A DNA stretch of 59,443 nucleotides from an uncultured Demequina sp. (GTDB lineage Bacteria; Actinomycetota; Actinomycetes; Actinomycetales; Demequinaceae), in the NCBI RefSeq assembly GCF_913055775.1, contig NZ_CAJXJX010000001.1, positions 1 to 59,443 on the forward strand, given 5' to 3'. This document shows, piece after piece, positions 16,954 through 46,083 of the stretch. The translations under genes were made by a program, and so were the position numbers. Position 1 is the first letter of the stretch, and every line of letters starts with the position of its first letter. The notes beneath the pieces are model-generated. The model was not told where the DNA came from. It saw only the letters and a list, made by a program, of their open reading frames with translations, and did no database searches.

Positions 16954-16954
16954 C

Positions 16955-17901: not shown

Positions 17902-17915
17902 AGGTAGAAGCGCCA

Positions 17916-17929: not shown

Positions 17930-18073
17930 GGGAGAGGCGTAGGGGTCACTCGCGGCTGCTTCACGAATTCTTGAAACAGCGTGAGAGCCGTTGTGCAAGA
18001 GCAGGCACGGCGCTCTCCGGAGCGGCGCGCCCCTCGACCTCGCCCCCGTACTCTTGATACTTGAAGAAGGGCG

Positions 18074-18283: not shown

Positions 18284-18297
18284 CAGCACGTTCGACA

Positions 18298-18732
18298 TCA
18301 CTGAATGTCGAACTCGTCCTCCAACTTGAGGAGCTCCTCGAGGGCCTCGCGCTGCGCGCGCACTCGCTTGGCGCGCAGGTCAGCGACGTCGGCAGTCTTG
18401 ACTCGGGTGTGCGTGCCCACCTTGTGTGAGGCCAGTTCCCCGTCGCGGATCAGCTTCATCAGCGTGGTGCGGCTGACGCCCAACTGCTCGGCAGCCACCG
18501 TCGTCGTGAGCTCCGGCGGCACGGAACCAACCGTGACACTGTGACCATCCGCAACTTCGTGGAGCACGCGCGAGAGGAACTGGACAAAGCCAGCGGAGAG
18601 CTCGGGAGCAGTTTGCAGGTCGAGCGATGCGCCGTGCGCAGGCATCGATCGCTCGAGGAAGTCGACGAGTAGTTGCGCCTCAGCACGCTCGGCCTCGTCA
18701 GCGAACACAGTGGACGATGCGGTCCCAGTCAC
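18298..18732 (-). CDS. Excisionase-family (HTH_17/MerR-like) DNA-binding protein
   Basis: ELTTTVAAEQLGVSRTTLMKLIRDGELASHKVGTHTRV motif; GGGAGG RBS before GTG 18732. Confidence 0.85.
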   Translation of the reverse strand: MTGTASSTVFADEAERAEAQLLVDFLERSMPAHGASLDLQTAPELSAGFVQFLSRVLHEVADGHSVTVGSVPPELTTTVAAEQLGVSRTTLMKLIRDGELASHKVGTHTRVKTADVADLRAKRVRAQREALEELLKLEDEFDIQ

Positions 18733-18762
18733 GGCAGCCTCCCAAGCCACGGTCAAGATACA

Positions 18763-18784
18763 AGTATGCGCGCCTACACTGACA
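18763..18784 (-). promoter_or_regulatory. PafBC/RecA-NDp-like promoter of the excisionase-family gene
   Basis: Minus strand reads TGTCAG-TGTAGGCGCG-CATACT, 30 nt upstream of the GTG. Confidence 0.6.
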
Positions 18785-18814
18785 TATGCAACTGAGTGCC
18801 AGTTACAACTGACA

Positions 18815-20002
18815 TTACCCTGCTTCTGCCGTGGCCGGAGTCGGAGCGACGCCGCGTGCGCGTCCCAGCGCCGCGGCCTCCTCCACGATGTCGATGCCCG
18901 CGGGGCACCACGTGATGCAGCGGCCGCATCCCACGCAGCCGAGCATGCCGAACTGGTCCTCCCAGGAGGACAGCTTGTGGGTGATCCACTGGCGGTAGCG
19001 CGACTTCGCGGACTCGCGCATGGGTCCGCCGTGGATGTAGCTGAACTGCTCGGAGAAGCACGAGTCCCACACGCGGTGGCGCTCGGCGTTCTCTCCGGTG
19101 AGGTCGGAGACGTCGGAGACGGTGGTGCAGAAGCACGTGGGGCATACGAGCGTGCAGTTGGTGCACGCGAGGCAGCGGGTAGCGATCTCCTCCCAGCGGG
19201 AGGATTCGGCTGATGCGCGCAGAGTGTCCGCGACCGTGTCCGTGTCGATGGCTCGGCTTTGTTGCGTGGCCGCGTGGGAGGTGACGGCGAGGGCCTCGTG
19301 CGCGTCGTCGAGGGTGGCCGGCGTGGTGTCGATCGCGTCCGCGACCTCGAGGCCGGCGGCGCTGCCGACCTCGAGGACAAAGTGGTGCAGGTCGGGGTCG
19401 CTCGGGGCGATCTCCGTGAGCAGCAGGTCATACGACGGTTCGCCGGTCTGGGGGTTGGTGTCGCTGGGGCGCGGGCCGGTGCCCATGGAGGCGCAGAAGC
19501 ACGTCGCGGCCGGGTCCGAGCAGGCGACCGCGACCACGAAGGTGCCGTCGCGGCGGGCGGCGTAGTGGGCGTCGATGTACTGTCGGCTGGCGAGCACAGT
19601 GTCGTGGATCTGGACGGCGCGCAGGTCGCACGAGCGCGTGCCGAGGAGTGCGATCTTGCGGCTGGTGTCGGGGGTGTCGCGCTCGACGGTGAAGTGGTCG
19701 TCCTCGCCGTTGTCGCGGCGGCCGCGCCAGATGACCTCCTCCGCCGGGAAGAACACGGGCTTCGAGGACTGGGCGGGGGCGGCGAAGCCAAAGTAGGCGC
19801 CATCGCCGCGCTCGCGCAGGCGGTACCGGGCGGGGTCCTGCTGGTCCCCGACCCCCTGCGGGAGGTCGGAGGCCGCACGGATCTCGCCGGTGACGATCGC
19901 ATCGCCCCGGACCGTGGGCCCCATCACCTGATAGCCGCGCTGCCGCAACTCGTCGATGAGGGCGCCGAGCCCCGATGTCGAGAGGATTCGGATGTCGTCC
20001 AT
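18815..20002 (-). CDS. hyhB: Group 3b hydrogenase 4Fe-4S dicluster (beta) subunit
   Basis: [32 protein letters not shown] and [12 protein letters not shown] motifs. Confidence 0.92.
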
Positions 20003-20034
20003 GACACGCCTCCACTTGCGACGCTATGCCGCTG
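19989..20034. repeat. 46-bp exact direct repeat, copy 2 (-10, RBS and start of hyhB)
   Basis: Identical to 17856..17901. Confidence 0.95.
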
Positions 20035-20346: not shown

Positions 20347-23300
20347 TTGGAGGTGTGTTACCGCGTGAACGAAACGGATGCCCGCACGTCTGCGACAACT
20401 CACGATGTCGTGCTCGCCTACAGACTCGCCAAGACCGATCTGTACTTCACCCAGAACGCTCGCGCTCTCGACTTGCTTGCGTACGAGGCTGACTTGGGCG
20501 AGCGCCTACGCTCGCTGCGCACCCGCATCAATGGCAAATGCAGCGATTGGGTCGATGACCCCGAGTTTGTCGGGGACAGCTACTTGGCGCCGAAGGGCTT
20601 GAAGGACTCGAACAACAGCACAACAGACGAGACCATTGAGCTTCGCCTGATGGCGCGCTGCAGCATCGATCTCCACGTCTTCTCCACCTACTGGATGATG
20701 ACCGTCGGCGAGAAGATCGATGCCGCGCTCTCAAGCAGCGTCCTCGGCTACAGGTTGCGCAGGACTACCCGCGAGCGGTTCAACCTTCTTGGGAGTGGGT
20801 CTTTCCCTTCATACATGCCGCGATACCGCAAGTGGCGCGATGGCCCACTGGAAGCGTCTAGAAAGGCGCTCGAAGACGGTCGGGAAGTGGCGGTGCTCAC
20901 GGGCGATGCCACCAGGTTCTTCCACTCGTTGGACCCGCGCTTCCTTGCAAACGCCGACTTCCTATTGCGATCGGGAGTAGAACTAAACGCGCACGAAACC
21001 CGCGTCAATCGCTTGTTCGTGCGAGCACTCGACAGTTGGAGAGAATGCGTGTCGCGCAAGCGGCCCTGGAATGCACAGGGCTTGCCAGTCGGGTTGCCTG
21101 CGAGCGCGGTAGTCGCCAACGCCGCACTTATCGAGCTCGACCGTCTCATCGAGACGGAGATCAAGCCGATCAAGTACGCACGCTACGTCGACGACATCTC
21201 AATAGTGCTCGAGAACGACGCCAGCTTCACGCAAGCAAGCGACGTATGGCGATGGATCGCACAGCGATCCGCGGGCGCGATCCAGGTCCTGGCGCGGGAC
21301 GAAGACTCCGCCGAGCCACGGGTGGAGCCGATCTCTCAGGTACTGACAGGCGACGTCGCAGTTTTCTCGCCCGCCTATCTGGGTGGCGCAAGCGTCAAGT
21401 TTGGGAATCGGAAGAACTCGCTTCTCAAGCTCGCAGGCACAAAGGGAGCAGACCAACTCAACGCGCTCGCAGAGCGCATCCGCGAATCGTCGAGCGAGTG
21501 GCGCTTGATGTCCACCGTCCCCGACAAGCCTGAGGCTGTAGGAGCCGAGGTCGCACGAGCTGTCCAACCCAGCGGAGACCACGGCGGAACTCTCCGCGAT
21601 GCGGACGTGGTCACGCTGACTCGATCACGGTTTGCGATCTGTGTGTCCGACTACGAGGCTTACGCTCAAGACCTCCCCTCGGCCTCGTGGGCCCCCCAGC
21701 GCCAGCGGTTCCTACGGGCTGTCAAGGATCAGGTTCTCGAGTCTGACGCGTTCTTCGAGCTCGGCTCTACCTTTTCGCGCGTCGTTGCTCTGGCCACCGC
21801 CTGTGGTGACTACGAGGAGGTCGCGGACCTTATCAATGGCGTTGCCACGTTCGTTGCACATGCCACGGCCACACATCCGGTGTCGATCGCGGGCGGCGTT
21901 GACCCCGGCGCCGGCCAAGCGACGATCGAATCAGTTTCCGTCTGGAATGCGTGGCGTCGAGATCTTGCCGAGGAGGCGTTTACGAGTGTTGTCGTGTCAC
22001 TGCCCGTCACCCGCCAAGAAGCTTGGGATATGGGCACAATTGCGGACGCTCTGTCCTCGTTGGACCCCACCAGGGATTGGTTTCGCCCGGACGACGAACT
22101 AACCGAGACCGTTCGCGCAATCAATGCTAGAGACCTCGGTTACGTGGCGCTTCGGCGCCAGTTCTTGCATGGGGAGAACGTGCGCCTCGGAGCAACGGGC
22201 CCTCTCCCGCGCCTTGGAAAGGGCGCCAAGTACCCCACTGCGCTGGTGGAGAGTGTGCAGGCGATCTCCGACATTCTCGCGATACCGGCTGGCGTCCAAG
22301 CAGGGGTGATGTTCGCCACTCGGCCTGTGCGTCTCGATGAGCTGTACCTAGCCCAGGCAGACGGCGACTCGAGGCCCGCGAGCGATTCGCTCACGCGCGC
22401 AATGATTGGTGCGCGTGGGTACGATCCGCGCGACTCTCTCGCTACCGCGGTCGACGAACCCACGACACGGTCCAGGACGCGAAACCTCACGCACTCGGTG
22501 CTGAGGGTAAAGGGGGGACGCAAGCTCTCCAGTGCCCGCAAGGTGCATGTGGCGCTCGGCGTTACGCAAAGCGAAGGCGACACCTGGAAAGGCGCGGCGC
22601 TAGGCGTCCCAGAACTGACGCTCGCCAAGCGAAATCGGCTCGCACGGCTCGTAAACGACGCGATAGGAACCCGGGATCCCATTGACTACTTCGTACTGCA
22701 CGAGCTTGCCATTCCAAGCGCGTGGTTCATGCGCATTGCGCTCAAGCTTCGCGCTCACAACATCGGGCTGATCTCGGGAGTGGAGTACGTACGCCGCGAC
22801 CCAAACCTTGTGGCGAATCAGGTCTGGGCCGCGCTGCCCATTCATCACGCCGAGGTACCGTCCATGTACATCCACAAGCAGGACAAACAACTGCCAGCTC
22901 CGCACGAGGAGGAAGCTCTTACTGAACTCGGAAATCTGCGCCTCGAGCCGAGCGCGAGCCGCAATGGTCCTGAGGACATTCCTGTCATAGACCACGGAGG
23001 CTTCTACTTCAGCCTCCTAATCTGCCACGAGCTGACCGACATTTCTGCGCGGGCGTACCTTCGTGGAAAAGTCGATGCCCTGTTTGTTCCCGAGCACAAC
23101 CAAGACACAAAGAGCTTCTCTTCTCTGGTGGAGTCGTCGGCGCTGGACATTCATGCCTACATCGTGCAGGCCAATGACAGGCGATTCGGAGACAGTAGAG
23201 TGCGTGCTCCGCGGAAGAAGGACTACCAACGAGACCTCGTGCGCGTATCCCGCGGTACACGCGACTATGTGGTCGCTGCGAAGCTCGATATCGATTCACT

Positions 23301-23454
23301 CCGGGTTCATCAAACCATGTATCGGCCGGACCCAAATGTGACTGGCTTCAAGCCCTGCCCAAGCGGATTCGAGATCACCCCGGCCCGCGCGAAGATACCC
23401 CCCGTCTCGCGACGCCAGACGGGCGATTCCGGCGGTCTCCCCCAGGAGGATTGA
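20347..23454 (+). CDS. Defence-associated reverse transcriptase fused to a C-terminal nitrilase (C-N hydrolase) domain; class 3 UG/Abi RT (UG1/DRT1, UG5 or UG6 type)
   Basis: RT motifs LTGDATRFFH, GLPVGLPASAVVAN, YARYVDD. Nitrilase triad in FVLHELAI (E), QDKQ (K), LLICHEL (C), plus VQANDRRFGDSR. Likely start is GTG 20365 after GGAGG at 20349. Confidence 0.88.
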   Translation: MEVCYRVNETDARTSATTHDVVLAYRLAKTDLYFTQNARALDLLAYEADLGERLRSLRTRINGKCSDWVDDPEFVGDSYLAPKGLKDSNNSTTDETIELRLMARCSIDLHVFSTYWMMTVGEKIDAALSSSVLGYRLRRTTRERFNLLGSGSFPSYMPRYRKWRDGPLEASRKALEDGREVAVLTGDATRFFHSLDPRFLANADFLLRSGVELNAHETRVNRLFVRALDSWRECVSRKRPWNAQGLPVGLPASAVVANAALIELDRLIETEIKPIKYARYVDDISIVLENDASFTQASDVWRWIAQRSAGAIQVLARDEDSAEPRVEPISQVLTGDVAVFSPAYLGGASVKFGNRKNSLLKLAGTKGADQLNALAERIRESSSEWRLMSTVPDKPEAVGAEVARAVQPSGDHGGTLRDADVVTLTRSRFAICVSDYEAYAQDLPSASWAPQRQRFLRAVKDQVLESDAFFELGSTFSRVVALATACGDYEEVADLINGVATFVAHATATHPVSIAGGVDPGAGQATIESVSVWNAWRRDLAEEAFTSVVVSLPVTRQEAWDMGTIADALSSLDPTRDWFRPDDELTETVRAINARDLGYVALRRQFLHGENVRLGATGPLPRLGKGAKYPTALVESVQAISDILAIPAGVQAGVMFATRPVRLDELYLAQADGDSRPASDSLTRAMIGARGYDPRDSLATAVDEPTTRSRTRNLTHSVLRVKGGRKLSSARKVHVALGVTQSEGDTWKGAALGVPELTLAKRNRLARLVNDAIGTRDPIDYFVLHELAIPSAWFMRIALKLRAHNIGLISGVEYVRRDPNLVANQVWAALPIHHAEVPSMYIHKQDKQLPAPHEEEALTELGNLRLEPSASRNGPEDIPVIDHGGFYFSLLICHELTDISARAYLRGKVDALFVPEHNQDTKSFSSLVESSALDIHAYIVQANDRRFGDSRVRAPRKKDYQRDLVRVSRGTRDYVVAAKLDIDSLRVHQTMYRPDPNVTGFKPCPSGFEITPARAKIPPVSRRQTGDSGGLPQED

Positions 23455-23493: not shown

Positions 23494-24237
23494 TCAAAGA
23501 TCCGAGGAGACCTGGGAATACAGCGACCCGCGGGCTTCGCGCATTTGACGCTCGAGGCGCTCGGAGAAAGCCGAGTCATTGACCCTAACACCCAGCTCGA
23601 CGTTGGCGTTCTCGGCGCTCCAGGACATGTTTGCACTCGTGACCACTACGAACCGATGATCGACTGAGATGAACTTGGCGTGATTGCGCACGGCCCTGCC
23701 ATCGAAGGGCTTGGTCGCGTAGATCTTTCCAGGAGCAAGCGTCTCGGCGATCTGCCTCGCATTCGGCCCGTAGCCACTGCCGGCTGCTTCTGCGTCGACG
23801 TAGACAGTGACCAAGACTCCGTCGCGCGATGCGGCCGCCTGGAGTTCGTCCCACATCCCGGATGACTCCTGGAAATTGAACGTTGATGCCACGACGGAGT
23901 GCCGCGCGCTCCGAACGAGATCTACCAGCGAGCCTGTCAACGCACCTGACTGAGCCAGGTGCCCCGGCATGGTCCAGATCGCGTCCACCGAGGTCACCTG
24001 CGACTTGGCACCCTCGATCGCCCACAGAGCCGCGACAAGGACCTCCCGTCGAGCACGCAAGCCGTGCGTCACAGCCAGTGCAGATACCTCAGCCCGCTGC
24101 TCCGCTCCCAGGACACTCAGCGCTGACCCGAAACTCTCGTCCGCATCAAGTGACGACGCAACAAGGCGTGCCTCCGTCCCGCTCAGAGTCTCTCCGAGAC
24201 GGCGCATTGCGTCCCCGAGGTCAGGAGAAGAAGCCAT
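23494..24237 (-). CDS. drmC: DISARM phospholipase D-family nuclease DrmC
   Basis: Single HKD motif HAKFISVD...TSANMS...NVELG; last gene after drmB. Confidence 0.88.
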   Translation of the reverse strand: MASSPDLGDAMRRLGETLSGTEARLVASSLDADESFGSALSVLGAEQRAEVSALAVTHGLRARREVLVAALWAIEGAKSQVTSVDAIWTMPGHLAQSGALTGSLVDLVRSARHSVVASTFNFQESSGMWDELQAAASRDGVLVTVYVDAEAAGSGYGPNARQIAETLAPGKIYATKPFDGRAVRNHAKFISVDHRFVVVTSANMSWSAENANVELGVRVNDSAFSERLERQMREARGSLYSQVSSDL

Positions 24238-26233
24238 ACCCGCCGTACCCAGGTAGGTCCACTACGAGCCGGCGGTCAAGGAAGCGGTTGGCCCGCTCGC
24301 ACGAGGTCTCGGACGCCATTGCGCAGGTGTGACACGCCGCCCCGTGGAGAAAGTCCTCCGGGTCCTTGGGCACTCGCTGCGCACATACTGGGTCGGACGA
24401 GCAGCGGTGCGAACGCGTCAGCGCCCGATCCACGATCCGGTTGAGCGACGACCGCTCGCTGAGGCTCACCAGGCCGCCGAGCGTCCCGTCCGAGTCCGAT
24501 GCGGTCGTCACGATGAGCAGACCCGCAGCAGCAGGGCGTTCGTCAGTCGCTTTCCATGCGTACACACGCTCGGACAGGCTTGCCGCCGAATAACCCGAGT
24601 ACATCGCCATCTCACGAATCAGCAGATGGCCAAACGTGTGCGCCAGCCAGTACCGCGCGGGCATGAACCTCGAGTCCGCGTCGACATCCTTCGAGGTCTC
24701 CGAGAACCGAGCATCGAAGTTCCGCTGGTGGGACGCCCGGTGCGCCTCCCAGAGGTCAGTCGACTCGATCTTGGCTTCCCACTCCGCAACCCGCGCTTCG
24801 TCAAGTTGGAGGAAGATGCCTTCGCCACGGTCTTCGGTCGCCACTGCCCACTCTGCACGGGCACTCCGAGTCAGCGGCACCAGCCTCGAAGGCAGGTCGT
24901 TCGCGCGCTCCATCTCGTCGATGCGCGTGAATCCCACAAGAGCATTAACCTTGCGCAGACTGTCGACCGCAAGCCCCCGGGACACCCCGAGTTCACGCAG
25001 ATCGCGATGGAGGTCGCCCAACCCAGTAAGCGCCAGGCCAGTCTGCTCATCTACATGATGAGCACCAGCGGGATCCCGCTGCAGGTAGTTCCACTCCGGT
25101 ACCAGTAGGTCGATCGGATCGAATCGCGCAAGCTCCGCTTGACGCTCTTCCTCGCTCGGCGGTGGCGCCATCGACGCGGCAATAGCAGCAACAAGGTCGT
25201 CGTCCGACAGATCCACCAGGCGCGATTCGACATCGTCCAGCTCCTCGCGGATGCGGTCCACATCGGCGTGGTACTTCTCGAGCTTCTTCGGACCGATCGC
25301 GGCCCGCAGCTCGTCACCACGAGTCATGACGGTTTCGGTCTCGCTCTCGGGCATCACGATGACCGACTGGGTGGCGGGAAACCACAGGTTCGAGGCACCG
25401 AGCAACATCACACGCGCCTGGTTCACGCACCCGTTCTTGGAGAAAGCCGCCAAGTGCGGGTGCCGCCCACGACAGCGCGGCAGCTTGTCGCGGCCAGCGT
25501 CACCTTGAGCCTCGTTCATGGGACGCCGAAGCCCACAGGCCTTGCACTCGATGGTGGCGGACGCACCCTTGCCGACGGTGCGCTCGAGCATCGCAAGTGG
25601 ACGAATCTCCGCTCCGGATGAGCACGCCTGCCCCTGGTGCACCCACCAGTCGTAAGGAAACTCGTCGAGGTGACCGTCGGTGCACGCCAATAGGTAACGT
25701 GCAGCGACTACTTGCGAGGGGTTCTTGCGGATGCGGCCGTCCGGACCTGGGCACTTCCGGTGCTCAAAGCGTGCCTCGTCGGGGCGGAAGGGGTTCGTGT
25801 TGACGTAGTTGAACTGGCTGAGTGGCCCCAGCTTGTTGCACCCGGTGCACCTGAGCCATTGCGGGAAGATCCGCGCCGGAACACCAAGGTCCTCGCCCTC
25901 CTTGTCCGCGAAGGACCGGCTCGGTGCCCAGGGGAAGGGGCGCAATTGTGTGACACCTGGGAGGAAGTTCTTCACTACTGCTAGGAGGCGCGGCGCGTGA
26001 ATCGTCGGCACGCTCTCACGTCGGTCCCAGATGCGGTCCCAGTCGTCGAGCCCTGCGGGCATGGCTGTCAGTTGCGGCAGGTCCATCACAGCGCCGGGAC
26101 CGTAGGTGTACAGCAACGACGACGGTCGAGCCGCGCCAACCTTTGCGCGATTGCGCGACGTCTTCTGCGCACTCGTCGCGTCCTGGTCCCCAAGCGGATC
26201 GAGGACTGCCTCATTCGGCGATGTCTCAGTCAT
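24221..26233 (-). CDS. drmB: DISARM DUF1998 protein DrmB
   Basis: RPSSLLYTYGPGA start motif, GHLDEFP, GEGIF and C-terminal CSSDPVC...HGAACHTC...ETSCE. Confidence 0.92.
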   Translation of the reverse strand: MTETSPNEAVLDPLGDQDATSAQKTSRNRAKVGAARPSSLLYTYGPGAVMDLPQLTAMPAGLDDWDRIWDRRESVPTIHAPRLLAVVKNFLPGVTQLRPFPWAPSRSFADKEGEDLGVPARIFPQWLRCTGCNKLGPLSQFNYVNTNPFRPDEARFEHRKCPGPDGRIRKNPSQVVAARYLLACTDGHLDEFPYDWWVHQGQACSSGAEIRPLAMLERTVGKGASATIECKACGLRRPMNEAQGDAGRDKLPRCRGRHPHLAAFSKNGCVNQARVMLLGASNLWFPATQSVIVMPESETETVMTRGDELRAAIGPKKLEKYHADVDRIREELDDVESRLVDLSDDDLVAAIAASMAPPPSEEERQAELARFDPIDLLVPEWNYLQRDPAGAHHVDEQTGLALTGLGDLHRDLRELGVSRGLAVDSLRKVNALVGFTRIDEMERANDLPSRLVPLTRSARAEWAVATEDRGEGIFLQLDEARVAEWEAKIESTDLWEAHRASHQRNFDARFSETSKDVDADSRFMPARYWLAHTFGHLLIREMAMYSGYSAASLSERVYAWKATDERPAAAGLLIVTTASDSDGTLGGLVSLSERSSLNRIVDRALTRSHRCSSDPVCAQRVPKDPEDFLHGAACHTCAMASETSCERANRFLDRRLVVDLPGYGGYGFFS

Positions 26234-37262: not shown

Positions 37263-39062
37263 TCAGGCACCTTCGCTGTGCGCTTCGGCCTCGATCATGA
37301 CGCTGTCTGGCGGCACCATGCCTCGGGTTACCATCCACTCCATCAGACGCTGAACGCCGTCGACCTTCTTCTTCGCATCCTGCGTGAGCTTCTTGCCCTG
37401 CCCGGAAGAGTCGTTGAGCTCCTCGAAGGCAAGCAGCTCGTCGGTCGCTTCGATGAGTGCATTGCCGGCAGCTACCCACTCAAAGCCCGGTGCCGTGTCG
37501 ACTCCAATGCGTTCGGCGACGAGGCGTGCCGCGAGGAGGTCTCGGAGTCCCGCGAGAACCGCCTCCGACGATTGAGCGCCGAGCGTTCTCCCGAGCGTGA
37601 CCGCGGCGCCACTCCCTACGCCGGCGACGCCACCAACCACCATCAGGCCGCCTGCGATGCCTCCCGGCCCCAAGGCCGACAGCCCTGCAAGAAAGGCTGC
37701 TCCTCCGGCAAGACCTGCAGGTGCAGCCGCGACGGCAAGAAACGGTGCTGCCACCACCGCCACACCTGCCAGAACAACTGCCGTTGCCAGCGTCGCGACG
37801 CGCTTGACTGCCCGTCCCTGTTCCTCCCCAACTGTCTTGACCTCGTCGACCGCACTCTCGACGATGTCGACGTAATTCTCGAGAATGCCAAAATCCATCG
37901 CTACTTGGCGACGCACTCCGGGCGCGACTTTGGAGTAGTCCACGCTGAATGGCAGTAAGGGATCCACTCGATAAAGGTGGACCAAGAACATCGGGATCTG
38001 TTCCGGAGCAACCCTGCCGTGCAGCCAAGGCTTCATGTCTCGGTCGAGGTCATTGAAGATCGGCCGCGACCCAGAATCCTCTGCGGCCTTCAGCGCCTGC
38101 GAGGCCAACCACTCGCGTATACCACGGACACGTTCCCGCTTGTCTTTAGCGCCTCGCTGAGGCGAAGTCTGCAGAGCCATCTCAATGCGGTAGGAGTGCT
38201 GCATCGTGACAGCGGTCAGGAGGTCGCTGCCCGACCACTCGTCCCGATCGGGACCTTCCCTAGACGGCACGACCCCGCGCTCTCGGACACCATAGAGGGC
38301 GTTGCCGATCTCCCTGCAAATCTGCGGCTGCTGCAGCGCATGCGCAACGCCGTGGTCCCTGAATCGCCCATTGAGCGCAAGATTGACAGCCTCCGGGATC
38401 GGGCCGCCAATCCCGCCCGCGTTCGGCACGAAGTCCAACGAGTTGTACACGTTGACCCACGCTTCCACCGCCGCAAGGTTCGCGTGCTTGTACGACTTCT
38501 CTGCGAACTTTCTGAAGGTTTGGCGCCCGAGCGGCGAGCCGAGAGTCAGGAGCAGCTTGATATTCATGCGCTCCGGAAGTTGACCGAGCAATTCCAACGC
38601 GACCGCGGTCCCAAGAGAGTGCGCGATAACGACCCAGTCACCTTCAGCGTTTCCGAGGCCGTGGAGTACACGCCTGATGATAGTTGGATGGCTGTCGGCG
38701 GCGAGGAACGCACGTACCTGGGCAAACATCGGGAAGGCCGCCACGCTCACCTTCTCCAGCGTCGCATCGTCCAGCGGCCCTCGGCCGGGAGCAAACCTCG
38801 CACCTGCGATGCGATGCGCCACCACGCTTTGCCGCGCAGCGAAGTCAGATCTGGCTACACGATCAGTGGCCTCGAGCGGCAATGTCCCTTCATCGCCGGC
38901 GCCGGTCGAGAGCAGATCGTCGTAGTGCGGTTCCACGGCATCCGTCAACTCAACGGGCGAACGCTGGCAGTCCGCCAGCGCCTCATTCAATGGCGTGCGC
39001 CAGTCCACTACCTCAGCACTATTGATTCCGTGCAGGAAAAGCACCCTCACTTGCTCTGCCAT
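37263..39062 (-). CDS. Uncharacterised alpha/beta-hydrolase (lipase-like) with a C-terminal Gly/Ala-rich hydrophobic hairpin
   Basis: FLHGI oxyanion motif, AHSLG nucleophile, candidate Asp (LDFVP) and His (DHG); long hydrophobic stretch AVVLAGVAVVAAPFL...GLSALGPGGIAGGLMVVGG. Confidence 0.75.
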   Translation of the reverse strand: MAEQVRVLFLHGINSAEVVDWRTPLNEALADCQRSPVELTDAVEPHYDDLLSTGAGDEGTLPLEATDRVARSDFAARQSVVAHRIAGARFAPGRGPLDDATLEKVSVAAFPMFAQVRAFLAADSHPTIIRRVLHGLGNAEGDWVVIAHSLGTAVALELLGQLPERMNIKLLLTLGSPLGRQTFRKFAEKSYKHANLAAVEAWVNVYNSLDFVPNAGGIGGPIPEAVNLALNGRFRDHGVAHALQQPQICREIGNALYGVRERGVVPSREGPDRDEWSGSDLLTAVTMQHSYRIEMALQTSPQRGAKDKRERVRGIREWLASQALKAAEDSGSRPIFNDLDRDMKPWLHGRVAPEQIPMFLVHLYRVDPLLPFSVDYSKVAPGVRRQVAMDFGILENYVDIVESAVDEVKTVGEEQGRAVKRVATLATAVVLAGVAVVAAPFLAVAAAPAGLAGGAAFLAGLSALGPGGIAGGLMVVGGVAGVGSGAAVTLGRTLGAQSSEAVLAGLRDLLAARLVAERIGVDTAPGFEWVAAGNALIEATDELLAFEELNDSSGQGKKLTQDAKKKVDGVQRLMEWMVTRGMVPPDSVMIEAEAHSEGA

Positions 39063-39067
39063 GGAGG

Positions 39068-42000
39068 CTAGCCTACAGATGGCGGCATTCGCCGGGAGCG
39101 CACGACGTCGAACCGCAGGGCGCGCGTCTTCGGCGCTGACAGGTCAACTCGCATCCACTCCGCCGACTCGCCGACCGCCCTTAGGAGATCGTCCTGCCGG
39201 GGTTGGCCAAGCAACTGACGGTAAGTGACGACCGTCCGAAGCAAGCGGTTGTAGTGCTGGAGCTCTCGACTCAGCGGCTGGGCAGGCACATAGCGCTCGA
39301 TAGCGGCGCCGTCGGAGCTCGGGTAGACCCAGAACGGCACGACCTCGGACTCGGCATCGGCCCGGCGTGCCACCGCGGACGAGAACGCGGCCTCCCAGGG
39401 GTCGTGGTAGCGGGCATTGAGAGCCGCCGCCCGATGATCATGCGCCACGTTCTTCCGCACTGCGTGACCCTTGTATCGATGGACCCGCCCCTCGCGCTGC
39501 TCAAGATCGACCGGGTTGCCGGGCAAGTTCCAGTGGACAATCGCGTGGCTATAAGTGTGAAAGTCCAAACCCTCCTGGCCCACGGACGTCGACGCAAGCA
39601 CAAACGGCCTGAATGGCGAGTTATAGGCGACGCGCACGGCACCTTCGCGCACCACTGCCTTGTCATCGGACTGCGCGCGGCCATAGCGCGCGGCGAAGTG
39701 ACTGCCGACGCGATGTGGCGTGAGCTCGATGCGCCCCGATTCGACCGAGACGTCTTCGACCACGTTGGTCGCGGTGCGTGTCGAGAGCGCCTCGCCGATC
39801 ACGGCAGATAGCCGGTCGGCGCGCGCGCCCGGAGCGGCATCCTGGAGCCCCTCCGACTCGAGCAGGACGTGGACATACTCATCGAGCACTGCCTGCAAGC
39901 CGCCGTCGATGCCGTGGTGCAAGACGCCGCGCCAGTACGCCTCGCCGTCGTGCGACCGCAGCAGCGCGATGATCTCCGGCTTGTTGAACATCGACCGCAG
40001 GCCCAGTGCGATCTCCACTGCGCCGCCTCGAAGTGCAGCGTCGCCGAGTGCATCAGCGCCGCCTGCAATGCGCGAGAGTGCGCGCAAGCCGACGACTCCA
40101 GGACCTGCGATAGCGACGTCAGTGAGCACCCCGGCGAGGTCGTGCGGAACGGCGCCCAGGCCGAGCGCGACCGCGCCGGACGGCTCTTCGACAGAGTCCA
40201 GACGTGCCAGAAGTTCGAGGTGCTCTCTCAGCCGGCTGGTGCCATCGCCCTCGTCGATCGCTCGCGCCCGGATCAAGCGCGAGAGCTCACGCGCGCTCAC
40301 GCCCTCGACGTGCCGGTCGAGCATCGCCGCCACAACCCAGTACCACCGCGAGTCCGTCGCGCCCCCGACGTCCGGAAGCGGCGGCAAGCGACCGAGCAGA
40401 GTCTCGATCCGCTCTCGAACAATCCCGATCATGTGTTCGCGATCCATCGGCATCGCGCCAACCTCTCGTGCGATGGCGAGCGGATCGGCGACGCGTGCAA
40501 GCGCGGTCGACGGGTAGAGCAGAGTCATGGTCGTGCCCGCAGGCCGGTACTGGAGCGGCGCGGTGGTGGCGCGCTGCTCGTCGTACGTCCGCCCGGCGAG
40601 CCCGGCGTGCTCGAGCGTCAGCCGCTCGGCCTCGTAGCTCGTCATCACTGCGATGGCCTTGGGAACCACAGCCCATGCCGAGAAGATCAGCCGCTTGGTG
40701 AAGCGACGCAGCTGCTCGTCCGCGTAGTCAGCTCCGAGCTCGTAGTAGGGCATCGACGGCGGGAGCCATGCGAGCTTCCATGCTCCGCGGTCGAGCACGT
40801 CGGCGAACAGCCCTCGGAGCTTGGCATTGCCTGGGTCGATTCGCGCGTACGACGCGATGTCGACTCGGCTGAGCATCCCGGACGCTTTCTCGAGGAGTCG
40901 TGCCAGCGACGGGTCACCGGTCTCGACAGCCGCCTCGAAGCGCTTGCGGATCTGGTAGGTCCCCCGCTCCATCAGGTTCAGCGGGTACGGACTTGAACGC
41001 CAGTACTCGAAGACATCGTGGCGGTCGAGATGCCTGGCAGCTGCGTCGAAGGTCACCCATGACCGTAGGTCCGCGCGATCGATCACCGCTCCGGGCATCG
41101 GCGCCTCGCGCAGCATCCCGTCACGGTCGGGTGTCGAGGCCAACCTCTCCATGCGGCTCATCACACGCCGCAGCGTCTGCTCGACGCGATCGCGGGCGCA
41201 GAGCGCCTCAGCGGTCGGCCCACCAGCCACTGCCGCTTCCCTCATCACGCGCAGATCGTCGCGGACACCCCGTGCCGCGTCCTCACCCGCGAGGAAGCCG
41301 ACGGTGCGTTGGAAGTCGTCGTAGTGGTCATCGCCACTCGGCTCGTCGGGAAGTGTGTACATCTTGAATGGAGTCGCGGACAAGAGCAGCACACGCGCCT
41401 TCTCGTGATCGAACACCTCTCGCGCGAGGTCCGATCCGTAGCCTTCGCCGTCGAGCACGTCCTTGAACCGCTGGAACTCATCGAGGATCACGAGGTCGGG
41501 CTCGAGGTGCTCGACCGCAGCGCGGGCGACCACGTGGCGTAGCCGGCCAACAAGGAGGTTGCGTTCGTTGCGGAGGGTCGAATTGGGTTGGCCGCGGGTC
41601 TTGCGAAACCTATCGACGCACGCCTCGAGTTCGTCAACGAGAGGTCGGCCCCGCGGCCCGATCGCGTGCTCAACGGCTCGACCGAAAGAGGAGACCAACT
41701 CATGGTCGAGGGTGCCGCGATCGAAGTCTCGGAGGTATTTCAGGAAGTTCTCCTCTCCCACTCGCCCCTGAAAGAAACGCCTCCAGGGGCGAGTCGCAAG
41801 CTTGCGCCTTCCCCAGTGCGCAGCAAGCATCCAGTAGAGAAGGACCCGCTCTGGGTACGCGCCGTCAGACGCGCCGTCGCTGAACGAGGTGCCAGGCGTG
41901 AACGAGATGAAGTTGACCTTCTCTGCGCGCAGGTCTTGCAGCGCCTTGGGTAGGAGCGTGAGCCGGTCAGCGTGCCGCAGCTCGGCGCCTCCGACGACAT

Positions 42001-42280
42001 TGAGACGGCTGAGGTTCTGTCGCGCGATCTGGGTGTTCGAGCAGATGTAGACGATGTCGATGCGGTCTTCCTTGTCCCACAAGTACTCGACAGCCTTGGC
42101 GATGACGCCCTTCGCAATCATGGTCTTGCCGAGCCCGACCTCGTCGGCCACGAGGAACCGCTTGGTCCAGTCCTCATCCGCCCATAGCCGCTGGAACGCG
42201 TAGTCGACCGTGCGACGCTGGAAGTCCTTGAGGCTGCCGAGAATTCTCTCGGTGTCTGGACGCTCTCGGGACGCACTCAT
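39068..42280 (-). CDS. SF2 helicase (third gene of the DUF6361-PLD-helicase module)
   Basis: LKDFQ, FLVADEVGLGKT, LDEFQRF, LSATP, GQEGLDFH and EQREGRVHRY motifs; ATG overlaps the PLD stop. Confidence 0.88.
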   Translation of the reverse strand: MSASRERPDTERILGSLKDFQRRTVDYAFQRLWADEDWTKRFLVADEVGLGKTMIAKGVIAKAVEYLWDKEDRIDIVYICSNTQIARQNLSRLNVVGGAELRHADRLTLLPKALQDLRAEKVNFISFTPGTSFSDGASDGAYPERVLLYWMLAAHWGRRKLATRPWRRFFQGRVGEENFLKYLRDFDRGTLDHELVSSFGRAVEHAIGPRGRPLVDELEACVDRFRKTRGQPNSTLRNERNLLVGRLRHVVARAAVEHLEPDLVILDEFQRFKDVLDGEGYGSDLAREVFDHEKARVLLLSATPFKMYTLPDEPSGDDHYDDFQRTVGFLAGEDAARGVRDDLRVMREAAVAGGPTAEALCARDRVEQTLRRVMSRMERLASTPDRDGMLREAPMPGAVIDRADLRSWVTFDAAARHLDRHDVFEYWRSSPYPLNLMERGTYQIRKRFEAAVETGDPSLARLLEKASGMLSRVDIASYARIDPGNAKLRGLFADVLDRGAWKLAWLPPSMPYYELGADYADEQLRRFTKRLIFSAWAVVPKAIAVMTSYEAERLTLEHAGLAGRTYDEQRATTAPLQYRPAGTTMTLLYPSTALARVADPLAIAREVGAMPMDREHMIGIVRERIETLLGRLPPLPDVGGATDSRWYWVVAAMLDRHVEGVSARELSRLIRARAIDEGDGTSRLREHLELLARLDSVEEPSGAVALGLGAVPHDLAGVLTDVAIAGPGVVGLRALSRIAGGADALGDAALRGGAVEIALGLRSMFNKPEIIALLRSHDGEAYWRGVLHHGIDGGLQAVLDEYVHVLLESEGLQDAAPGARADRLSAVIGEALSTRTATNVVEDVSVESGRIELTPHRVGSHFAARYGRAQSDDKAVVREGAVRVAYNSPFRPFVLASTSVGQEGLDFHTYSHAIVHWNLPGNPVDLEQREGRVHRYKGHAVRKNVAHDHRAAALNARYHDPWEAAFSSAVARRADAESEVVPFWVYPSSDGAAIERYVPAQPLSRELQHYNRLLRTVVTYRQLLGQPRQDDLLRAVGESAEWMRVDLSAPKTRALRFDVVRSRRMPPSVG

Positions 42281-44103
42281 GAGCGCTTCTCCGTGTGGAC
42301 GGACCACACGACGTTCCAGAGGTCCTCGAATCCCTCTGGCATCAGTTCGGCACCGCCGCGCGCCTGCCTGAGCTCGTCCATCGCCCCGGCGATGCGCGCA
42401 AGCGCCGCGTCGTCGCGCCCGACCGCGTGCACGAGCGGTTCGAACAGCGCCACGTCTTCGTTGGTACCGCGGTACCCGCCTTCCCAGGCCACCGCATCGG
42501 CGCCAGCAAGCTCCGCGAGCAGCGCGTCGTACGCGGGGTCACCGAGCAAGAAGATCAGGTATCGCAGCACGTCACGCTGAGACTTGAGCACCGAAGCGAA
42601 AGCGTTCTTGCGACGGTCGCCGACGTCGCCGGTGAGCTCCGCCTTCACCACGCACCGACGGCTCACCTTCGCGTCGCCAATGCCCGCCGTCGTCTCCAGG
42701 GCGACGAACGGCGTGACGTTATCCGTCGCCAGGGTCCAATCCATCACCTCAGCGAGCTCGCGAGCATGGCCGTCACGTGCGATGGAGATCGGCCATGCGA
42801 CGGTGCTGCCCGGCGGCTCGGGCGGCACCACCAGCGCGACAGCCACCTGCGCGCGATCGTCGTCGATCGTCGCGACGTGAGCAGAGACGCCTGCCTCCGC
42901 GATGGCGCGATGGAATGCCTCGATCTCATACGTGGTCGCGATCTGGGCGTCGTCGATCCCGTCCGCTTCGGCAGCCGATGCGGGCTCGAGCATACGTATG
43001 AGACCCGGCGCCTCTTCGGTCCCATCGAGTACTTGCTTGACGCCACATTCGCGCGTCGCGCCGCGCAGTACGACGTCGAACTCGACGTTCCCTCCCCAAC
43101 GCGCGCTCGTGAGGTTGGCACTGCCAGTGACGACCTCGGACGTGCCTCCGTCGAGATCCACGATGAAGGTCTTGGCATGAAGTCCTTCGTTGGCGCCGCC
43201 GAACTCGAAGCCGACGGCTTCGGCCTCGCCAACCTCCGCGCCGGCCTCTACCTCTGCCAAGCGCTGCAGGACGTTCGTGTCCCAGCCGGCGAGCGCATCG
43301 GCGCCAAGAAGGTCGAGCGACTCTTGCCGGGTGATCAGCGTCCGCGAGCTCGCAAGAGTGCCGAGCGAGCGAACCCCAGCGCGCGACAGGAACGGGCTGA
43401 TTGCGAGGACTCGTCGAGCACGGTCCGGGAAGGGCCACACTTCGGCGCCGTCAATGCCGATCGGCAGCAGCTCGCCCGAGGTGAAAGGCGCCGGCACGAC
43501 GAGCCGAGTCTCCCGGAGCGTGCTCGCGAGGCTGGCGATCTGCTGAGCGCGGTCCGTCGCAAGCGGGCGCAAGCCGAGACCGGGCAGGGCCTCAACGAAA
43601 CCGGCCATCGGCGCGGCGTCGATGGTCCCGCCCGGGGCCTCGTCGAGCACGAGCGCCGTATCCCACGACCGATCGAAGGTGATGTTCCGGCTCAGCACGA
43701 CGACCCGGTGAAGGAACGAGGACCGTGACTCGTCCGCGAATCGAAGCACCCAGACCTTGGGATGGAAGATCGCGCCGTCTCGTGGCGCCACCACCTCGCG
43801 GACGCTTTCCTCCACGAACAGCAAGATGCTGCGGTAGTTCGGCGGGACATGGATGCCGCCCGCCTGGCAGAACACTGTGGTCCGGTCCGCGTAGCGGCGT
43901 ACAGCCTCCAGCAATCGCACAGGGTCCGCTGCGTCCAGGTCCGAGCCGGCGATACGGTCCTCAAGCGCAAACGAGAGCGGCGCCAGAAGCATTGCGGTGA
44001 GGTCCATCGAGTACGTGGTGCCGACCGCGACGTCCACGCCCATGCCAGCGGGCGGGCGCAGCGCATCTGTGAGGAGCACGCGCGTCTCAGGGGTGAGTGT
44101 CAT
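42277..44103 (-). CDS. Phospholipase D-family nuclease-like protein with two HxK motifs
   Basis: FHPKVWVL...SRNIT and LHAKTFIVD...GSANLT...NVE; ATG 44103 overlaps the upstream stop. Confidence 0.85.
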   Translation of the reverse strand: MTLTPETRVLLTDALRPPAGMGVDVAVGTTYSMDLTAMLLAPLSFALEDRIAGSDLDAADPVRLLEAVRRYADRTTVFCQAGGIHVPPNYRSILLFVEESVREVVAPRDGAIFHPKVWVLRFADESRSSFLHRVVVLSRNITFDRSWDTALVLDEAPGGTIDAAPMAGFVEALPGLGLRPLATDRAQQIASLASTLRETRLVVPAPFTSGELLPIGIDGAEVWPFPDRARRVLAISPFLSRAGVRSLGTLASSRTLITRQESLDLLGADALAGWDTNVLQRLAEVEAGAEVGEAEAVGFEFGGANEGLHAKTFIVDLDGGTSEVVTGSANLTSARWGGNVEFDVVLRGATRECGVKQVLDGTEEAPGLIRMLEPASAAEADGIDDAQIATTYEIEAFHRAIAEAGVSAHVATIDDDRAQVAVALVVPPEPPGSTVAWPISIARDGHARELAEVMDWTLATDNVTPFVALETTAGIGDAKVSRRCVVKAELTGDVGDRRKNAFASVLKSQRDVLRYLIFLLGDPAYDALLAELAGADAVAWEGGYRGTNEDVALFEPLVHAVGRDDAALARIAGAMDELRQARGGAELMPEGFEDLWNVVWSVHTEKRS

Positions 44104-45302
44104 GCGGCGCCCCTCGCCTGGTAGAGGTCGCGCAGATGCGCTGAAGTGTTGGCCCAGCGGAAGTCGAGATGACCAAGGCCGCTCGATCCTGACCAGCGAT
44201 CGAGCGCCGACTGGTTCACGAACCGGGCACGGCTGCCCTTGATCTGGCGCTCGCGGGTCTCGGCGAGCCGCGCCGCGTCGCTGCTCGTCAGGAGATCGCC
44301 TCGGGAGCTCGCGATGTCCACCCAAGAATCCACGAAGGCCCGCGTCGTGTGGCGAAGCTGAGGGTTGTGAGTTCCGATGAGACGCCACCATGCAGCCCGG
44401 TCCCACGTCGCGGCGAGCTCGCGTGCGCCGGAGTCCTGCCACTCGGCGAGCGAATGCTCGTGGCCGACGAGCACATCCTCTCGTGCGCCTTTGCGCGCCA
44501 GCGCCACGTTGTAGACGAGTGCGGCGCCGTGAACAAGGACGCTGAAGCGCTGGGCGTGGTCGACGAGGTCGCGCAGATCCTGTGGGAGCTGATCCGTATT
44601 GCCAATTTCCCACGGGTAGCCCGCGGAATCCGGACCGTCCATGTTGGGCGGTGGGTTGCGCGTAAGCCACGCGAGAAGCGTTCCGCGTGTTCGCGAGGAG
44701 ATCCGGTACGAGAGGTACTCCTCCTCGCGGGCAGTCAGTTCGAAGGTCACCTGGCCCAGAAGTCCATCGGGTGGCGGAGGAAGCTCGGCGTCGATGCCGT
44801 CGCCGGGCAGCGTCATGTGCGAGTCGATGTCGTCGGCGTCGGCGGTCCTATCCCTCAGGGACCTGAAGTCCGACAGGCGACGGTAGTAGGCGTTCGGGGA
44901 AGATGCGTCCACCAAGCCCCAGTTGCCGAGCGCCGACCAGTAGACGTCACTAGGTAGCCTCTTGAGTGAACGCCGCGCGACGTTGCCCATGACGCCTTCG
45001 GTCTCACCACCCGCGAGCAGGCTGTCGATGAGGCGGTACTGCAGGTGCCGGAACTCCGCAGACATCTCCGCAGGCGTGTGCTTGCGCGACGCGGCTTGCA
45101 TGAGCCACGGCAGGAACAGGACATACCGAAGTCGTGTGTGCAGGGTGGACGTGCCGGGGAACATGGCATTCGCGAGGGTGTCGCGGATCGCGCCGATGCC
45201 CAGCTCGTCAATGGTCCCCTGCTCCCGGAAGAGGTCGACGACCTCCAGCATGCGGCGGCGCTGCTCGTCGTCATTGTCGAGCCATCCGAATGCCGAAGCC
45301 AT
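44100..45302 (-). CDS. DUF6361 family protein
   Basis: MASAFGWLD, DELGIGAIRD...FPGTSTLHTRLRY and PS.VYW..L..WG motifs. Confidence 0.8.
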   Translation of the reverse strand: MASAFGWLDNDDEQRRRMLEVVDLFREQGTIDELGIGAIRDTLANAMFPGTSTLHTRLRYVLFLPWLMQAASRKHTPAEMSAEFRHLQYRLIDSLLAGGETEGVMGNVARRSLKRLPSDVYWSALGNWGLVDASSPNAYYRRLSDFRSLRDRTADADDIDSHMTLPGDGIDAELPPPPDGLLGQVTFELTAREEEYLSYRISSRTRGTLLAWLTRNPPPNMDGPDSAGYPWEIGNTDQLPQDLRDLVDHAQRFSVLVHGAALVYNVALARKGAREDVLVGHEHSLAEWQDSGARELAATWDRAAWWRLIGTHNPQLRHTTRAFVDSWVDIASSRGDLLTSSDAARLAETRERQIKGSRARFVNQSALDRWSGSSGLGHLDFRWANTSAHLRDLYQARGAA

Positions 45303-45308
45303 GATGTG

Positions 45309-45384
45309 ATCCTGGCGCAATGGTGCGACATTTCCAACAGGTCGACGTGCCACGGTTGGCAATGTCACAGGGCTCTGCCAGGCT
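45309..45384. promoter_or_regulatory. Back-to-back PafBC/RecA-NDp-like promoters for the defence operon (-) and DUF429 (+)
   Basis: Minus: TGTCGC-ACCATTGCGC-CAGGAT-N6-ATG (45330..45309). Plus: TGTCAC-AGGGCTCTGC-CAGGCT-N6-ATG (45363..45384). The two arms form a 13/15 inverted repeat (45324-45338 / 45355-45369). Confidence 0.7.
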
Positions 45385-45390
45385 CACGCC

Positions 45391-46083
45391 ATGACAGTGT
45401 TGGGCTTGGACGGATGCAAGGGCGGATGGGCCGCCGTCGCCATTGACGACGAGGGTCTTGTTGGCTCGTTCGTGGCCGCGAGCATTGCCGATGTGGAAGC
45501 CGAGGCGAATGCGCGCTGGAACGTCGCGACGATTGTGGTCGATATCCCCATCGGACTGCCGGATAGAGGCCCTCGACAAGCCGACATCGAGGCTCGTAAG
45601 TTCATCGGGCCCCGCCGCAACAGCGTCTTCCCCACCCCTGTGCGCAACGCGGTCGAGTCGTCTACGTACCTCGAGGCATCAGCAGCATCAATCGCTGCGT
45701 CTGGCAAGAGCCTCAGCAAGCAGGCTTGGGCAATCACGCCGAAGATTCGCGAGGTGGATGCTCACATCAAGTCGGGTGACGCCTCCGCTCGCATTCTCGA
45801 AGGACACCCGGAAGTGTCATTCCGCGCAATGGCAGGAGAGTCGATCGACCACTACAAGAAGTCGCTGTCTGGTCTCCTCCTGAGGCGAGAGTTGCTTGCA
45901 AGCGAAGGAGTAGCGTTTCCTGAGGGCATCGAGCGCGAACTCAAGGGCTGCGACCTCGACGACCTCCACGATGCCGCCGCGATGGCATGGACGGCGCGGC
46001 GGGTTGAGCGTGGAGAGGTAGACAGCAAGCCGAACGCTCCCGAAGTCTTCTCCGATGGGCTGCCCAGTGCGATCTGGTACTAG
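45391..46083 (+). CDS. DUF429 family predicted RNase H-like nuclease
   Basis: VLGLDGCKGGW, VDIPIGL, R.AD..AR, EGHPEVSF and DDLHDA motifs. Confidence 0.85.
   Translation: MTVLGLDGCKGGWAAVAIDDEGLVGSFVAASIADVEAEANARWNVATIVVDIPIGLPDRGPRQADIEARKFIGPRRNSVFPTPVRNAVESSTYLEASAASIAASGKSLSKQAWAITPKIREVDAHIKSGDASARILEGHPEVSFRAMAGESIDHYKKSLSGLLLRRELLASEGVAFPEGIERELKGCDLDDLHDAAAMAWTARRVERGEVDSKPNAPEVFSDGLPSAIWY

What the first reader, a model, noticed from the sequence alone, without database searches (positions are those of the whole stretch)
20347..23454. Stand-alone RT-nitrilase defence gene converging on DISARM
Seen: intact YVDD RT site and E-K-C nitrilase triad, with unusual His residues next to two catalytic positions (LHEL, ICHEL). 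There is no small membrane partner gene, and its stop is 39 nt from the drmC stop. Known: RT-nitrilase fusions are class 3 UG/Abi RTs, and DRT1 was described with a small TM partner; the nitrilase substrate is not established to my knowledge. Inference: a single-gene actinobacterial variant in which RT product may switch on a C-N hydrolase effector, possibly an abortive back-up to DISARM.
Basis: partly seen in the sequence, partly recalled or inferred. Interest (0 to 1): 0.75.

Follow-up and report, generated by a model that had tools for sequence, protein, structure and literature searches.

The report
DRT11-type RT-nitrilase with altered pocket
This is an intact gene of an already described anti-phage family (a reverse transcriptase fused to a nitrilase enzyme, like DRT11), and its one unusual trait is a set of changed residues at positions predicted to line the nitrilase's substrate pocket, found otherwise in only one close relative.

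Summary
The gene is real and intact (likely start GTG 20365, 1029 aa). It is a UG5-large RT-nitrilase: full-length UG5 model 767 bits against 88 for Drt1a, and 35% identical over 97% of its length to DRT11 of Sinorhizobium meliloti. DRT11 is the published single-gene, TM-less system whose YVAA and Cys-to-Ala mutants lose defence. Lack of a TM partner is the norm (31 of 299 UG5-large have one, PMC9226505), so 'stand-alone' is not new. The DISARM link looks like shared hotspot cargo: in the genus, DISARM occurs without this gene in 2 genomes and a UG5 gene without DISARM in 1. P785H, S894H, W917H and G969R are shared only with a Demequina copy; H894 and H917 occur in 0 of 413 other UG5-type nitrilases. 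The catalytic E-K-E-C tetrad is intact and that nitrilase is strongly conserved between the two copies. Most likely this is pocket repacking toward a DRT1-like arrangement; a changed substrate is possible but untested. The scan noted this family before on other DNA. Verdict: new member of a known kind, modest interest.

The parts
20365..23454 (+).
   Evidence: model pLDDT 88.7, pTM 0.91
20349..20354 (+). Shine-Dalgarno-like GGAGGT, 10 nt before GTG 20365
   Evidence: start inferred
20365..21336 (+). RT domain (residues 7-330), catalytic D187 at 20905-20907 and YVDD at 21184-21195
   Evidence: RVT_1 E 2e-5, under cut-off; UG5 model 286 bits; D282/D283 align to DRT11 D296/D297
21337..22536 (+). 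Mostly helical connector (residues 331-730); holds S383 (SEW motif), invariant in the 139-row alignment
   Evidence: role inferred from DRT1's helical-repeat domain
22537..23391 (+). C-N hydrolase (nitrilase-superfamily) domain, residues 731-1015
   Evidence: pLDDT 90.3; Z 23.9, rmsd 2.7 over 240 residues to amidase 4kzf, many tied; 9YFD, E 4.9e-17
22699..22704 (+). H785 (family Pro) and catalytic E786
22885..22908 (+). Catalytic K847 and E854
23023..23040 (+). Catalytic C893, H894 (family Ser), D898 (family mostly Asn)
   Evidence: C893 = DRT11 C876; = DRT1 C1116
23095..23097 (+). H917 (family Trp), predicted pocket-lining loop
   Evidence: pocket role by homology to the loop described in PMC7616060, inferred
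23251..23253 (+). R969 (family Gly), with S968 (family Lys/Arg): the basic residue sits one position later
23347..23370 (+). C-terminal FKPxPxGF motif; K1002 and S1006 align with DRT1 lid residues K1219 and A1223
   Evidence: profile alignment; PMC13275509
23494..37158 (-). Neighbour, not part of the gene's system: class I DISARM (drmC 23494-24237, drmB 24221-26269, drmA 26226-29948, drmMI 29945-34009, drmD 34006-37158)
37263..46083 (.). Rest of the defence island: unknown 599-aa ORF, PADLOC ZacC/ZacB/ZacA genes (39068-45368, minus strand), DUF429 gene (45391-46083, plus strand)
   Evidence: syntenic in L006/L037

Best explanation
This is a single-gene UG5-large (DRT11-type) reverse transcriptase-nitrilase that likely defends against phage by abortive infection, needing both active sites, with a nitrilase pocket that is likely repacked rather than broken. 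Shown here: family membership, intact RT and nitrilase catalytic residues, no TM partner, purifying selection on the nitrilase. Inferred from DRT11: defence needs YVDD and the catalytic Cys, no ncRNA, protection only at low MOI. Inferred more loosely from DRT1 (UG1): the RT makes short untemplated, protein-primed ssDNA on itself; this drives oligomers with the nitrilase at the core, held shut by the C-terminal lid (K1002/S1006 here); phage replication proteins release it; the nitrilase then cleaves an amide- or amine-bearing metabolite or makes a toxin and stops the cell. The substrate is unknown for the whole class. The His changes likely move aromatic bulk from position 917 to 894, resembling DRT1 (Y1117, Y1140). 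It likely acts independently of DISARM, as separate cargo of one defence hotspot.
For: UG5 model 767 bits over residues 11-1021, Drt1a 88 bits; DRT11 scores 1016 on the same model and true UG1 proteins 1317-1890 on Drt1a. 35.1% identity over 97% to the DRT11 locus; the residues mutated in DRT11 map to D282, D283, C893. RT tree: the protein sits inside the group holding DRT11 (SH-aLRT 94), UG1 outside (97). Nitrilase of the two His-type copies: 87% identical, dN/dS about 0.05, with 4-fold sites near saturation (0.33 vs 0.26 random), so selection and not recent exchange. Covariation: 8 of 9 sequences with Y/F/H at 894 lack Trp at 917, against 13 of 267 others. D898 and S1006 also resemble DRT1 D1121 and A1223. 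Independence from DISARM.
Against: No activity was measured and no RNA data were found. The biochemical steps come from DRT1 (local matches only, E 3e-10) and from DRT5L, which I did not align, so they may not carry over; DRT1's priming Ser is stated not to be conserved in other class 3 DRTs. The covariation rests on about three lineages plus one exception, not independent rows. The only close relative (L006) has a frame break near codon 90. RT and connector diverge unusually fast relative to the nitrilase in this pair. Distances between the His residues could not be measured, since model coordinates are not returned.
Confidence: 0.66

Rival explanations
1. Same defence logic, but the remodelled pocket (H785, H894, H917, R969, K761/R762) has switched the nitrilase to a different substrate from canonical UG5-large, possibly an acidic or phosphorylated one, or has added a metal site.
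For: Four of the five departures at columns at least 90% conserved are these His/Arg changes. The position after the catalytic Cys and the following P-x-x loop line the substrate cavity in a solved nitrilase (PMC7616060). The nitrilase tree shows a long stem (0.74) then near-stasis (pair distance 0.15), against RT 0.51 and 0.57, the pattern of a shifted then fixed function.
Against: Five departures in 60 columns is not exceptional: at least 30 other rows have five or more. Departures are spread over all domains (18 of 94 RT, 20 of 70 connector, 17 of 99 nitrilase). His at 917 also occurs in distant UG5-type loci L025/L027 and in UG1 L038, and His at 785 in 4 others with canonical Ser/Trp. Only two sequences carry the set.
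Confidence: 0.18
2. The lineage is losing its dependence on the RT: the nitrilase is kept and works with little or no RT input, while RT and connector drift.
For: Nitrilase minus RT identity is 24.5 points for this pair, the largest of 7140 pairs (mean 5.9, sd 3.7; pairs not independent). The relative's frame break lies in the RT N-terminus and leaves a 935-codon ORF with the nitrilase whole.
Against: D187 and YVDD are kept in both copies; RT dN/dS is about 0.2; the window's gene is unbroken; RT-dead DRT1 and DRT11 give no defence (PMC13275509, PMC13436386). The break may be an assembly error or simple loss of function.
Confidence: 0.08
3. The gene is a dedicated abortive back-up coupled to DISARM.
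For: Convergent with drmC in both His-type loci (39 nt here, 43 nt in L006). The His-type pair has so far been seen only beside DISARM.
Against: The two loci are one shared island (drmC to DUF429 syntenic), so one event. Of 64 genus genomes, 4 have drmC and 3 have the UG5 gene; G072 and G066 have DISARM only, G079 the UG5 gene only, all in the same chromosomal hotspot. No drm match in 22 other UG5 loci (L007, L008, L034, L009-L027; many short). Opposite strands. The drm genes are 84-97% identical between the two genomes while this protein is 66%, so they do not share one history.
Confidence: 0.05
4. The nitrilase is inactive because of the His substitutions and the gene is decaying; or the RT is a retron or group II intron enzyme.
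For: Departures at near-invariant positions; weak matches to retron St85 and group II RT models.
Against: Tetrad intact; nitrilase dN/dS about 0.05; confident fold. Retron and group II scores are 35 of 235 and 26 of 300 bits needed.
Confidence: 0.03

Closest known systems
DRT11, UG5-large RT-nitrilase of Sinorhizobium meliloti RMO17 (WP_040120558.1; PMC13436386)
   Same: Single gene, about 1000 aa, RT-connector-nitrilase; YVDD and catalytic Lys/Cys/Glu align one to one; no TM gene; defence-island setting; same best HMM; 35% identity over 97% (RT region 43%, connector 28%, nitrilase 47%).
   Different: Pocket positions P771/S877/N881/W900/G952 of DRT11 are H/H/D/H/R here; actinobacterial chromosome hotspot beside DISARM rather than a rhizobial megaplasmid beside toxin-antitoxin genes; untested.
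UG5-large RT-nitrilase + 1TM of E. coli P2/P4 hotspots (PMC9122126)
   Same: UG5 RT with C-terminal nitrilase, validated antiphage.
   Different: That system has a TM gene, reported as required (PMC9226505); none here. I did not fetch its sequence.
DRT1 / UG1 (PDB 9YFD; PMC13275509)
   Same: Class 3 RT-helical-nitrilase layout; C893 = C1116; lid residues K1002/S1006 align with K1219/A1223; an aromatic ring after the Cys and Asp at 898, as in DRT1; most drt1 genes also lack the TM gene.
   Different: Different RT clade; 1029 aa versus 1200-1300; Drt1a model only 88 bits, partial; priming Ser402 could not be mapped (one search aligned the nitrilase only).
DISARM class I (drmD, MI, A, B, C)
   Same: The adjacent operon is a complete class I DISARM.
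   Different: The RT-nitrilase is not a DISARM component and co-occurs with it in one shared island only.

Membership tests
UG5-large / DRT11 | N-terminal RT fused to a C-terminal C-N hydrolase in one protein of about 1000 aa or more | tested here: met
   1029 aa
UG5-large / DRT11 | Best full-length match to the UG5-nitrilase profile | tested here: met
   PDLC03780 767 bits over 11-1021; DRT11 itself 1016 bits
UG5-large / DRT11 | RT groups with UG5-large and apart from UG1 | tested here: met
   Quick IQ-TREE tree of 85 RT cores: group with DRT11 SH-aLRT 94, UG1 97; no bootstrap; 4 of 89 rows dropped; long branches flagged; no AU test
UG5-large / DRT11 | Intact YVDD and nitrilase catalytic residues | tested here: met
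UG5-large / DRT11 | TM partner optional (absent in DRT11) | tested here: met
   No hydrophobic ORF beside the gene; positive control 3 of 3 UG1 loci
UG5-large / DRT11 | No ncRNA template | tested here: inconclusive
   No Rfam hit in the window; upstream 330 nt folds at z -0.9; upstream poorly conserved in L006; no RNA data
UG5-large / DRT11 | Antiphage activity needing both active sites, abortive pattern | not testable with these tools
   needs phage assays
DRT1 / UG1 | Full-length Drt1a profile match and 1200-1300 aa | tested here: not met
   88 bits, residues 775-985 only; 1029 aa versus 1317-1890 bits for UG1 controls
DRT1 / UG1 | RT in the UG1 clade | tested here: not met
DRT1 / UG1 | C-terminal lid residues (K1219, A1223) | tested here: met
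   K1002 and S1006 by profile alignment to 9YFD
DRT1 / UG1 | Priming serine S402, DNA adducts and filaments | tested here: inconclusive
   Profile comparison aligned only the nitrilase; S383 is a candidate only; adducts not testable
Retron or group II intron RT | Curated profile cut-offs; msr-msd or intron RNA | tested here: not met
   35.2 of 235 and 26.2 of 300 bits; no Rfam match
DISARM component | Same operon and consistent co-occurrence with drm genes | tested here: not met
   Opposite strand

The most novel reading that the evidence does not exclude
A two-member Demequina sublineage of DRT11-type enzymes has rebuilt its nitrilase pocket with three histidines and an arginine, then frozen it under strong selection while the RT kept drifting. 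It attacks a different substrate from canonical UG5-large, and reciprocal pocket swaps with DRT11 would help pin down the unknown target of antiphage nitrilases.
Probability: 0.18. Interest if true: 0.55.

Novelty: new member of a known kind. Interest (0 to 1): 0.28.

Why it matters
The architecture, the lack of a TM partner and the two-active-site requirement are already published (DRT11), so the gene itself adds only an untested actinobacterial member. The substrate of class 3 DRT nitrilases is an open question (stated in PMC13275509). A natural variant with an intact tetrad but changed pocket positions (H894 and H917 in 0 of 413 other UG5-type nitrilases) gives a ready comparison for substrate trapping and pocket swaps. 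That is a useful reagent, not a new kind of system.

Tried and rejected
Retron or group II intron identity: rejected. DRT1/UG1 membership: rejected. Hidden TM partner on either side: none. ncRNA: no Rfam match, no folding signal, no conserved upstream. Promoter and terminator scan: one chance-level promoter-like site inside the gene, no terminator between the convergent stops. No tRNA in the window and no repeat pair bounding the island. Recent exchange of the nitrilase half as the cause of its high identity: rejected, 4-fold sites are equally saturated in all domains. More His-type members: none in 1.84 billion representatives (best 150 listed), three searches of the 90% collection, genome contigs (1 locus), metagenome contigs (19 distant loci), viral contigs, phages (no match), or 401-genome draws of order and phylum. 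Pfam does not detect this nitrilase even at E 10. Foldseek on the full model listed DRT6, DRT4, AbiA and amidases; 9YFD was not among the rows shown. Mapping the DRT1 priming serine failed. Sequencing runs: no RNA holder listed; the one DNA run may be the source of the window, so it is not independent. The Atlas search on the homologue returned only CN-hydrolase-like and RT-nitrilase clusters.
Full report
Observation. A stop-free frame runs 20347-23454 on the plus strand. The start is more likely GTG 20365 (1029 aa): a GGAGGT lies 10 nt upstream, the closest relative's ATG is in the same register, and an NCBI cluster member is 1029 aa and otherwise identical. I number residues from 20347. YVDD (280-283), D187, E786, K847, E854 and C893 are present. 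The stop is 39 nt from the stop of drmC. The neighbours are a full class I DISARM, a 599-aa ORF with no family hit, PADLOC ZacC/B/A genes and DUF429. GC falls from about 0.68-0.72 to 0.61-0.62 over the gene; GC3 is 0.71 against 0.92 in the hydrogenase genes, as expected of acquired DNA.

Family. The protein matches PADLOC RT_UG5-nitrilase over residues 11-1021 at 767 bits; Drt1a gives 88 bits on part of the nitrilase. As controls, DRT11 scores 1016 on the UG5 model and three plasmid UG1 proteins score 1317-1890 on Drt1a. Retron and group II intron models stay far under cut-off. A plasmid search returned 5 records; one is the DRT11 locus itself, 35.1% identical over 97%. The residues mutated in that study (D296/D297, C876) align with D282/D283 and C893. 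In a quick maximum-likelihood tree of 85 RT cores (4 of 89 rows dropped because my motif search missed them; SH-aLRT only; long branches flagged), the protein lies inside the group holding DRT11 (94), with UG1 outside (97). AlphaFold models are confident (full length pLDDT 88.7; nitrilase 90.3), and the C-terminal domain has the nitrilase fold (Z 23.9, rmsd 2.7 over 240 residues; many amidases tied).

What is published. PMC13436386 (main text read whole, parts 1-6 of 7) names DRT11: a 1005-aa single-gene UG5-large RT-nitrilase without a TM gene, protective at low MOI, dead as DD-to-AA or C876A, with no ncRNA detected. PMC9226505 (passages) counts a TM gene in 31 of 299 UG5-large and 33 of 175 UG1 members, and reports it as needed in the E. 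coli E101 system (also PMC9122126, passages). PMC13275509 (parts 1-4 of 11: introduction, results, discussion, start of methods; plus passages) shows that DRT1 makes protein-primed, untemplated, A-rich DNA adducts that drive dormant filaments with the nitrilase shut by swapped C-termini; that DRT5S and DRT5L also make covalent DNA; that T4 Dda is needed for activation; and that the substrate is unknown. I saw only a snippet of the DRT5L sequence (12 of 17 supplementary files searched) and did not align it, so its closeness to this protein is untested. 'Stand-alone, no TM partner' is therefore ordinary.

TM and RNA partners. Same-strand ORFs after the stop peak at hydropathy 0.44 and 0.61; the same test finds 2.27-2.48 after 3 of 3 UG1 loci and nothing above 1.5 after the other 18 UG5-type loci tested, several of which end soon after the gene. 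No Rfam match, no folding signal upstream (z -0.9) and little upstream conservation were found; no RNA data were available.

The His residues. That count left out the translations of loci L009-L027 and L038-L040: among those, His at 917 occurs in the near-identical distant UG5-type loci L025 and L027 and in UG1 L038. The full set is shared only with the Demequina sp. SO4-18 protein (P0003, locus L006; 66-67% identical), which also converges on drmC but has a frame break near codon 90. In a solved nitrilase the residue after the catalytic Cys and the next P-x-x loop line the substrate cavity (PMC7616060, passages; PMC12961655, passages), so 894 and 917 are likely pocket positions. This is by homology: model coordinates are not returned and I measured no distances.

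For function. Between the two copies the nitrilase is 87% identical with dN/dS about 0.05, the RT 63% (0.21) and the connector 56% (0.22). Four-fold sites are near saturation everywhere (0.33-0.36 against 0.26-0.29 random), so these ratios are rough, but recent exchange is excluded. The nitrilase-minus-RT gap is the largest of 7140 non-independent pairs. The nitrilase has a long stem and short tips (0.74 and 0.15) where the RT has 0.51 and 0.57. The altered pocket is thus being kept.

Against reading too much into it. Only 5 of 60 well-conserved nitrilase columns differ, and at least 30 other rows differ at five or more. The lineage departs from its 118 nearest relatives in all three domains (55 of 263 columns). 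Aromatic residues at 894 go with loss of Trp at 917 in 8 of 9 cases against 13 of 267 (about three lineages, one exception), and DRT1 has Tyr at both (Y1117, Y1140), with D1121 and A1223 matching D898 and S1006. Compensatory repacking toward a DRT1-like pocket is the simplest reading; a substrate switch stays open. With one pair I cannot tell extra constraint on the nitrilase from faster drift of the RT.

DISARM. The island from drmC to DUF429 is syntenic in the window and in L006/L037, so the adjacency is one event. In 64 genomes of the genus, drmC is in 4 and the UG5 nitrilase in 3: two have DISARM only (G072, G066; drmA 49% identical) and one (G079) has a canonical-pocket UG5 gene among restriction genes with no drmC. 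All lie in the same hotspot, near homologues of genes from window 1.9-20 kb or 48-52 kb. None of 22 other UG5 loci shows a drm gene, though many are short. The drm proteins are 84-97% identical between the two genomes, against 66% for this protein. The gene is rare: 3 of 401 genomes in an order draw, all in this genus, and 1 of 401 (the window's own) in a phylum draw; named Microbacterium, Cryobacterium and Rhodococcus hits show it occurs elsewhere in actinobacteria.

Novelty. Paper searches listed no study of an actinobacterial UG5-large or of a His-type pocket; subscription papers are mostly missing from the library. The genus name was not found in the supplements held for PMC9226505 (one file, possibly cut and perhaps without organism names, since Microbacterium was absent too) or PMC13436386 (2060 characters held), so whether this protein is already in those catalogues is open. 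Earlier notes of this scan hold the words 'reverse transcriptase nitrilase' in 90 findings, one filed as ordinary UG5-large. The host genus (Demequina) is inferred from the named close relative; the name 'Azaca' for the Zac genes is recalled and comes from no call.

Verdict. New member of a known kind (UG5-large/DRT11); membership about 0.97; works like DRT11 with a repacked pocket about 0.66; changed substrate about 0.18. Interest 0.28.

Noticed in passing
window 17856-17901 and 19989-20034: A perfect 46-bp direct repeat covers the start codons of two hydrogenase-operon genes (ORFs starting 17869 and 20002, minus strand). Between them lies an HTH_17 (excisionase-like) match at about 18367-18510; most of window 17780-18860 has no counterpart in G083. 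Looks like a small duplication or insertion inside the operon.
   Followed up: partly
window 37263-39062 (-): A 599-aa ORF between zacC and drmD has no Pfam, NCBIfam or PADLOC hit, yet is 83-93% identical in L037 at the same place. Candidate unannotated defence gene.
   Followed up: no
window 39068-45368 (-): Complete three-gene ZacA/ZacB/ZacC system (Azaca, name recalled) directly upstream of DISARM on the same strand.
   Followed up: partly
L006 about 10260-10290: The only close relative of the RT-nitrilase has a frame break near codon 90; databases hold only its 928-aa downstream product. Real or an assembly error is unknown.
   Followed up: partly
window 21493-21495: S383 of the SEW motif is invariant in the 139-row alignment and lies about 100 residues after YVDD; a candidate priming serine by loose analogy to DRT1 S402. 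Untested.
   Followed up: no
proteins P0186, P0242, P0252, P0156, P0175, P0197, P0241: Other UG5-large members replace the conserved Trp at position 917 with Lys, Asn or Leu; these may be further pocket subtypes.
   Followed up: no
window 14307-20002 (-): A NiFe hydrogenase/sulfhydrogenase-like operon borders the island and marks the same defence hotspot in G083, G072 and G066.
   Followed up: partly
L034 10161-13238 (G079): A second, canonical-pocket UG5-large gene in the same genus, 36% identical, beside a type IIG restriction-methylase, with no TM gene and no drmC in that genome.
   Followed up: yes
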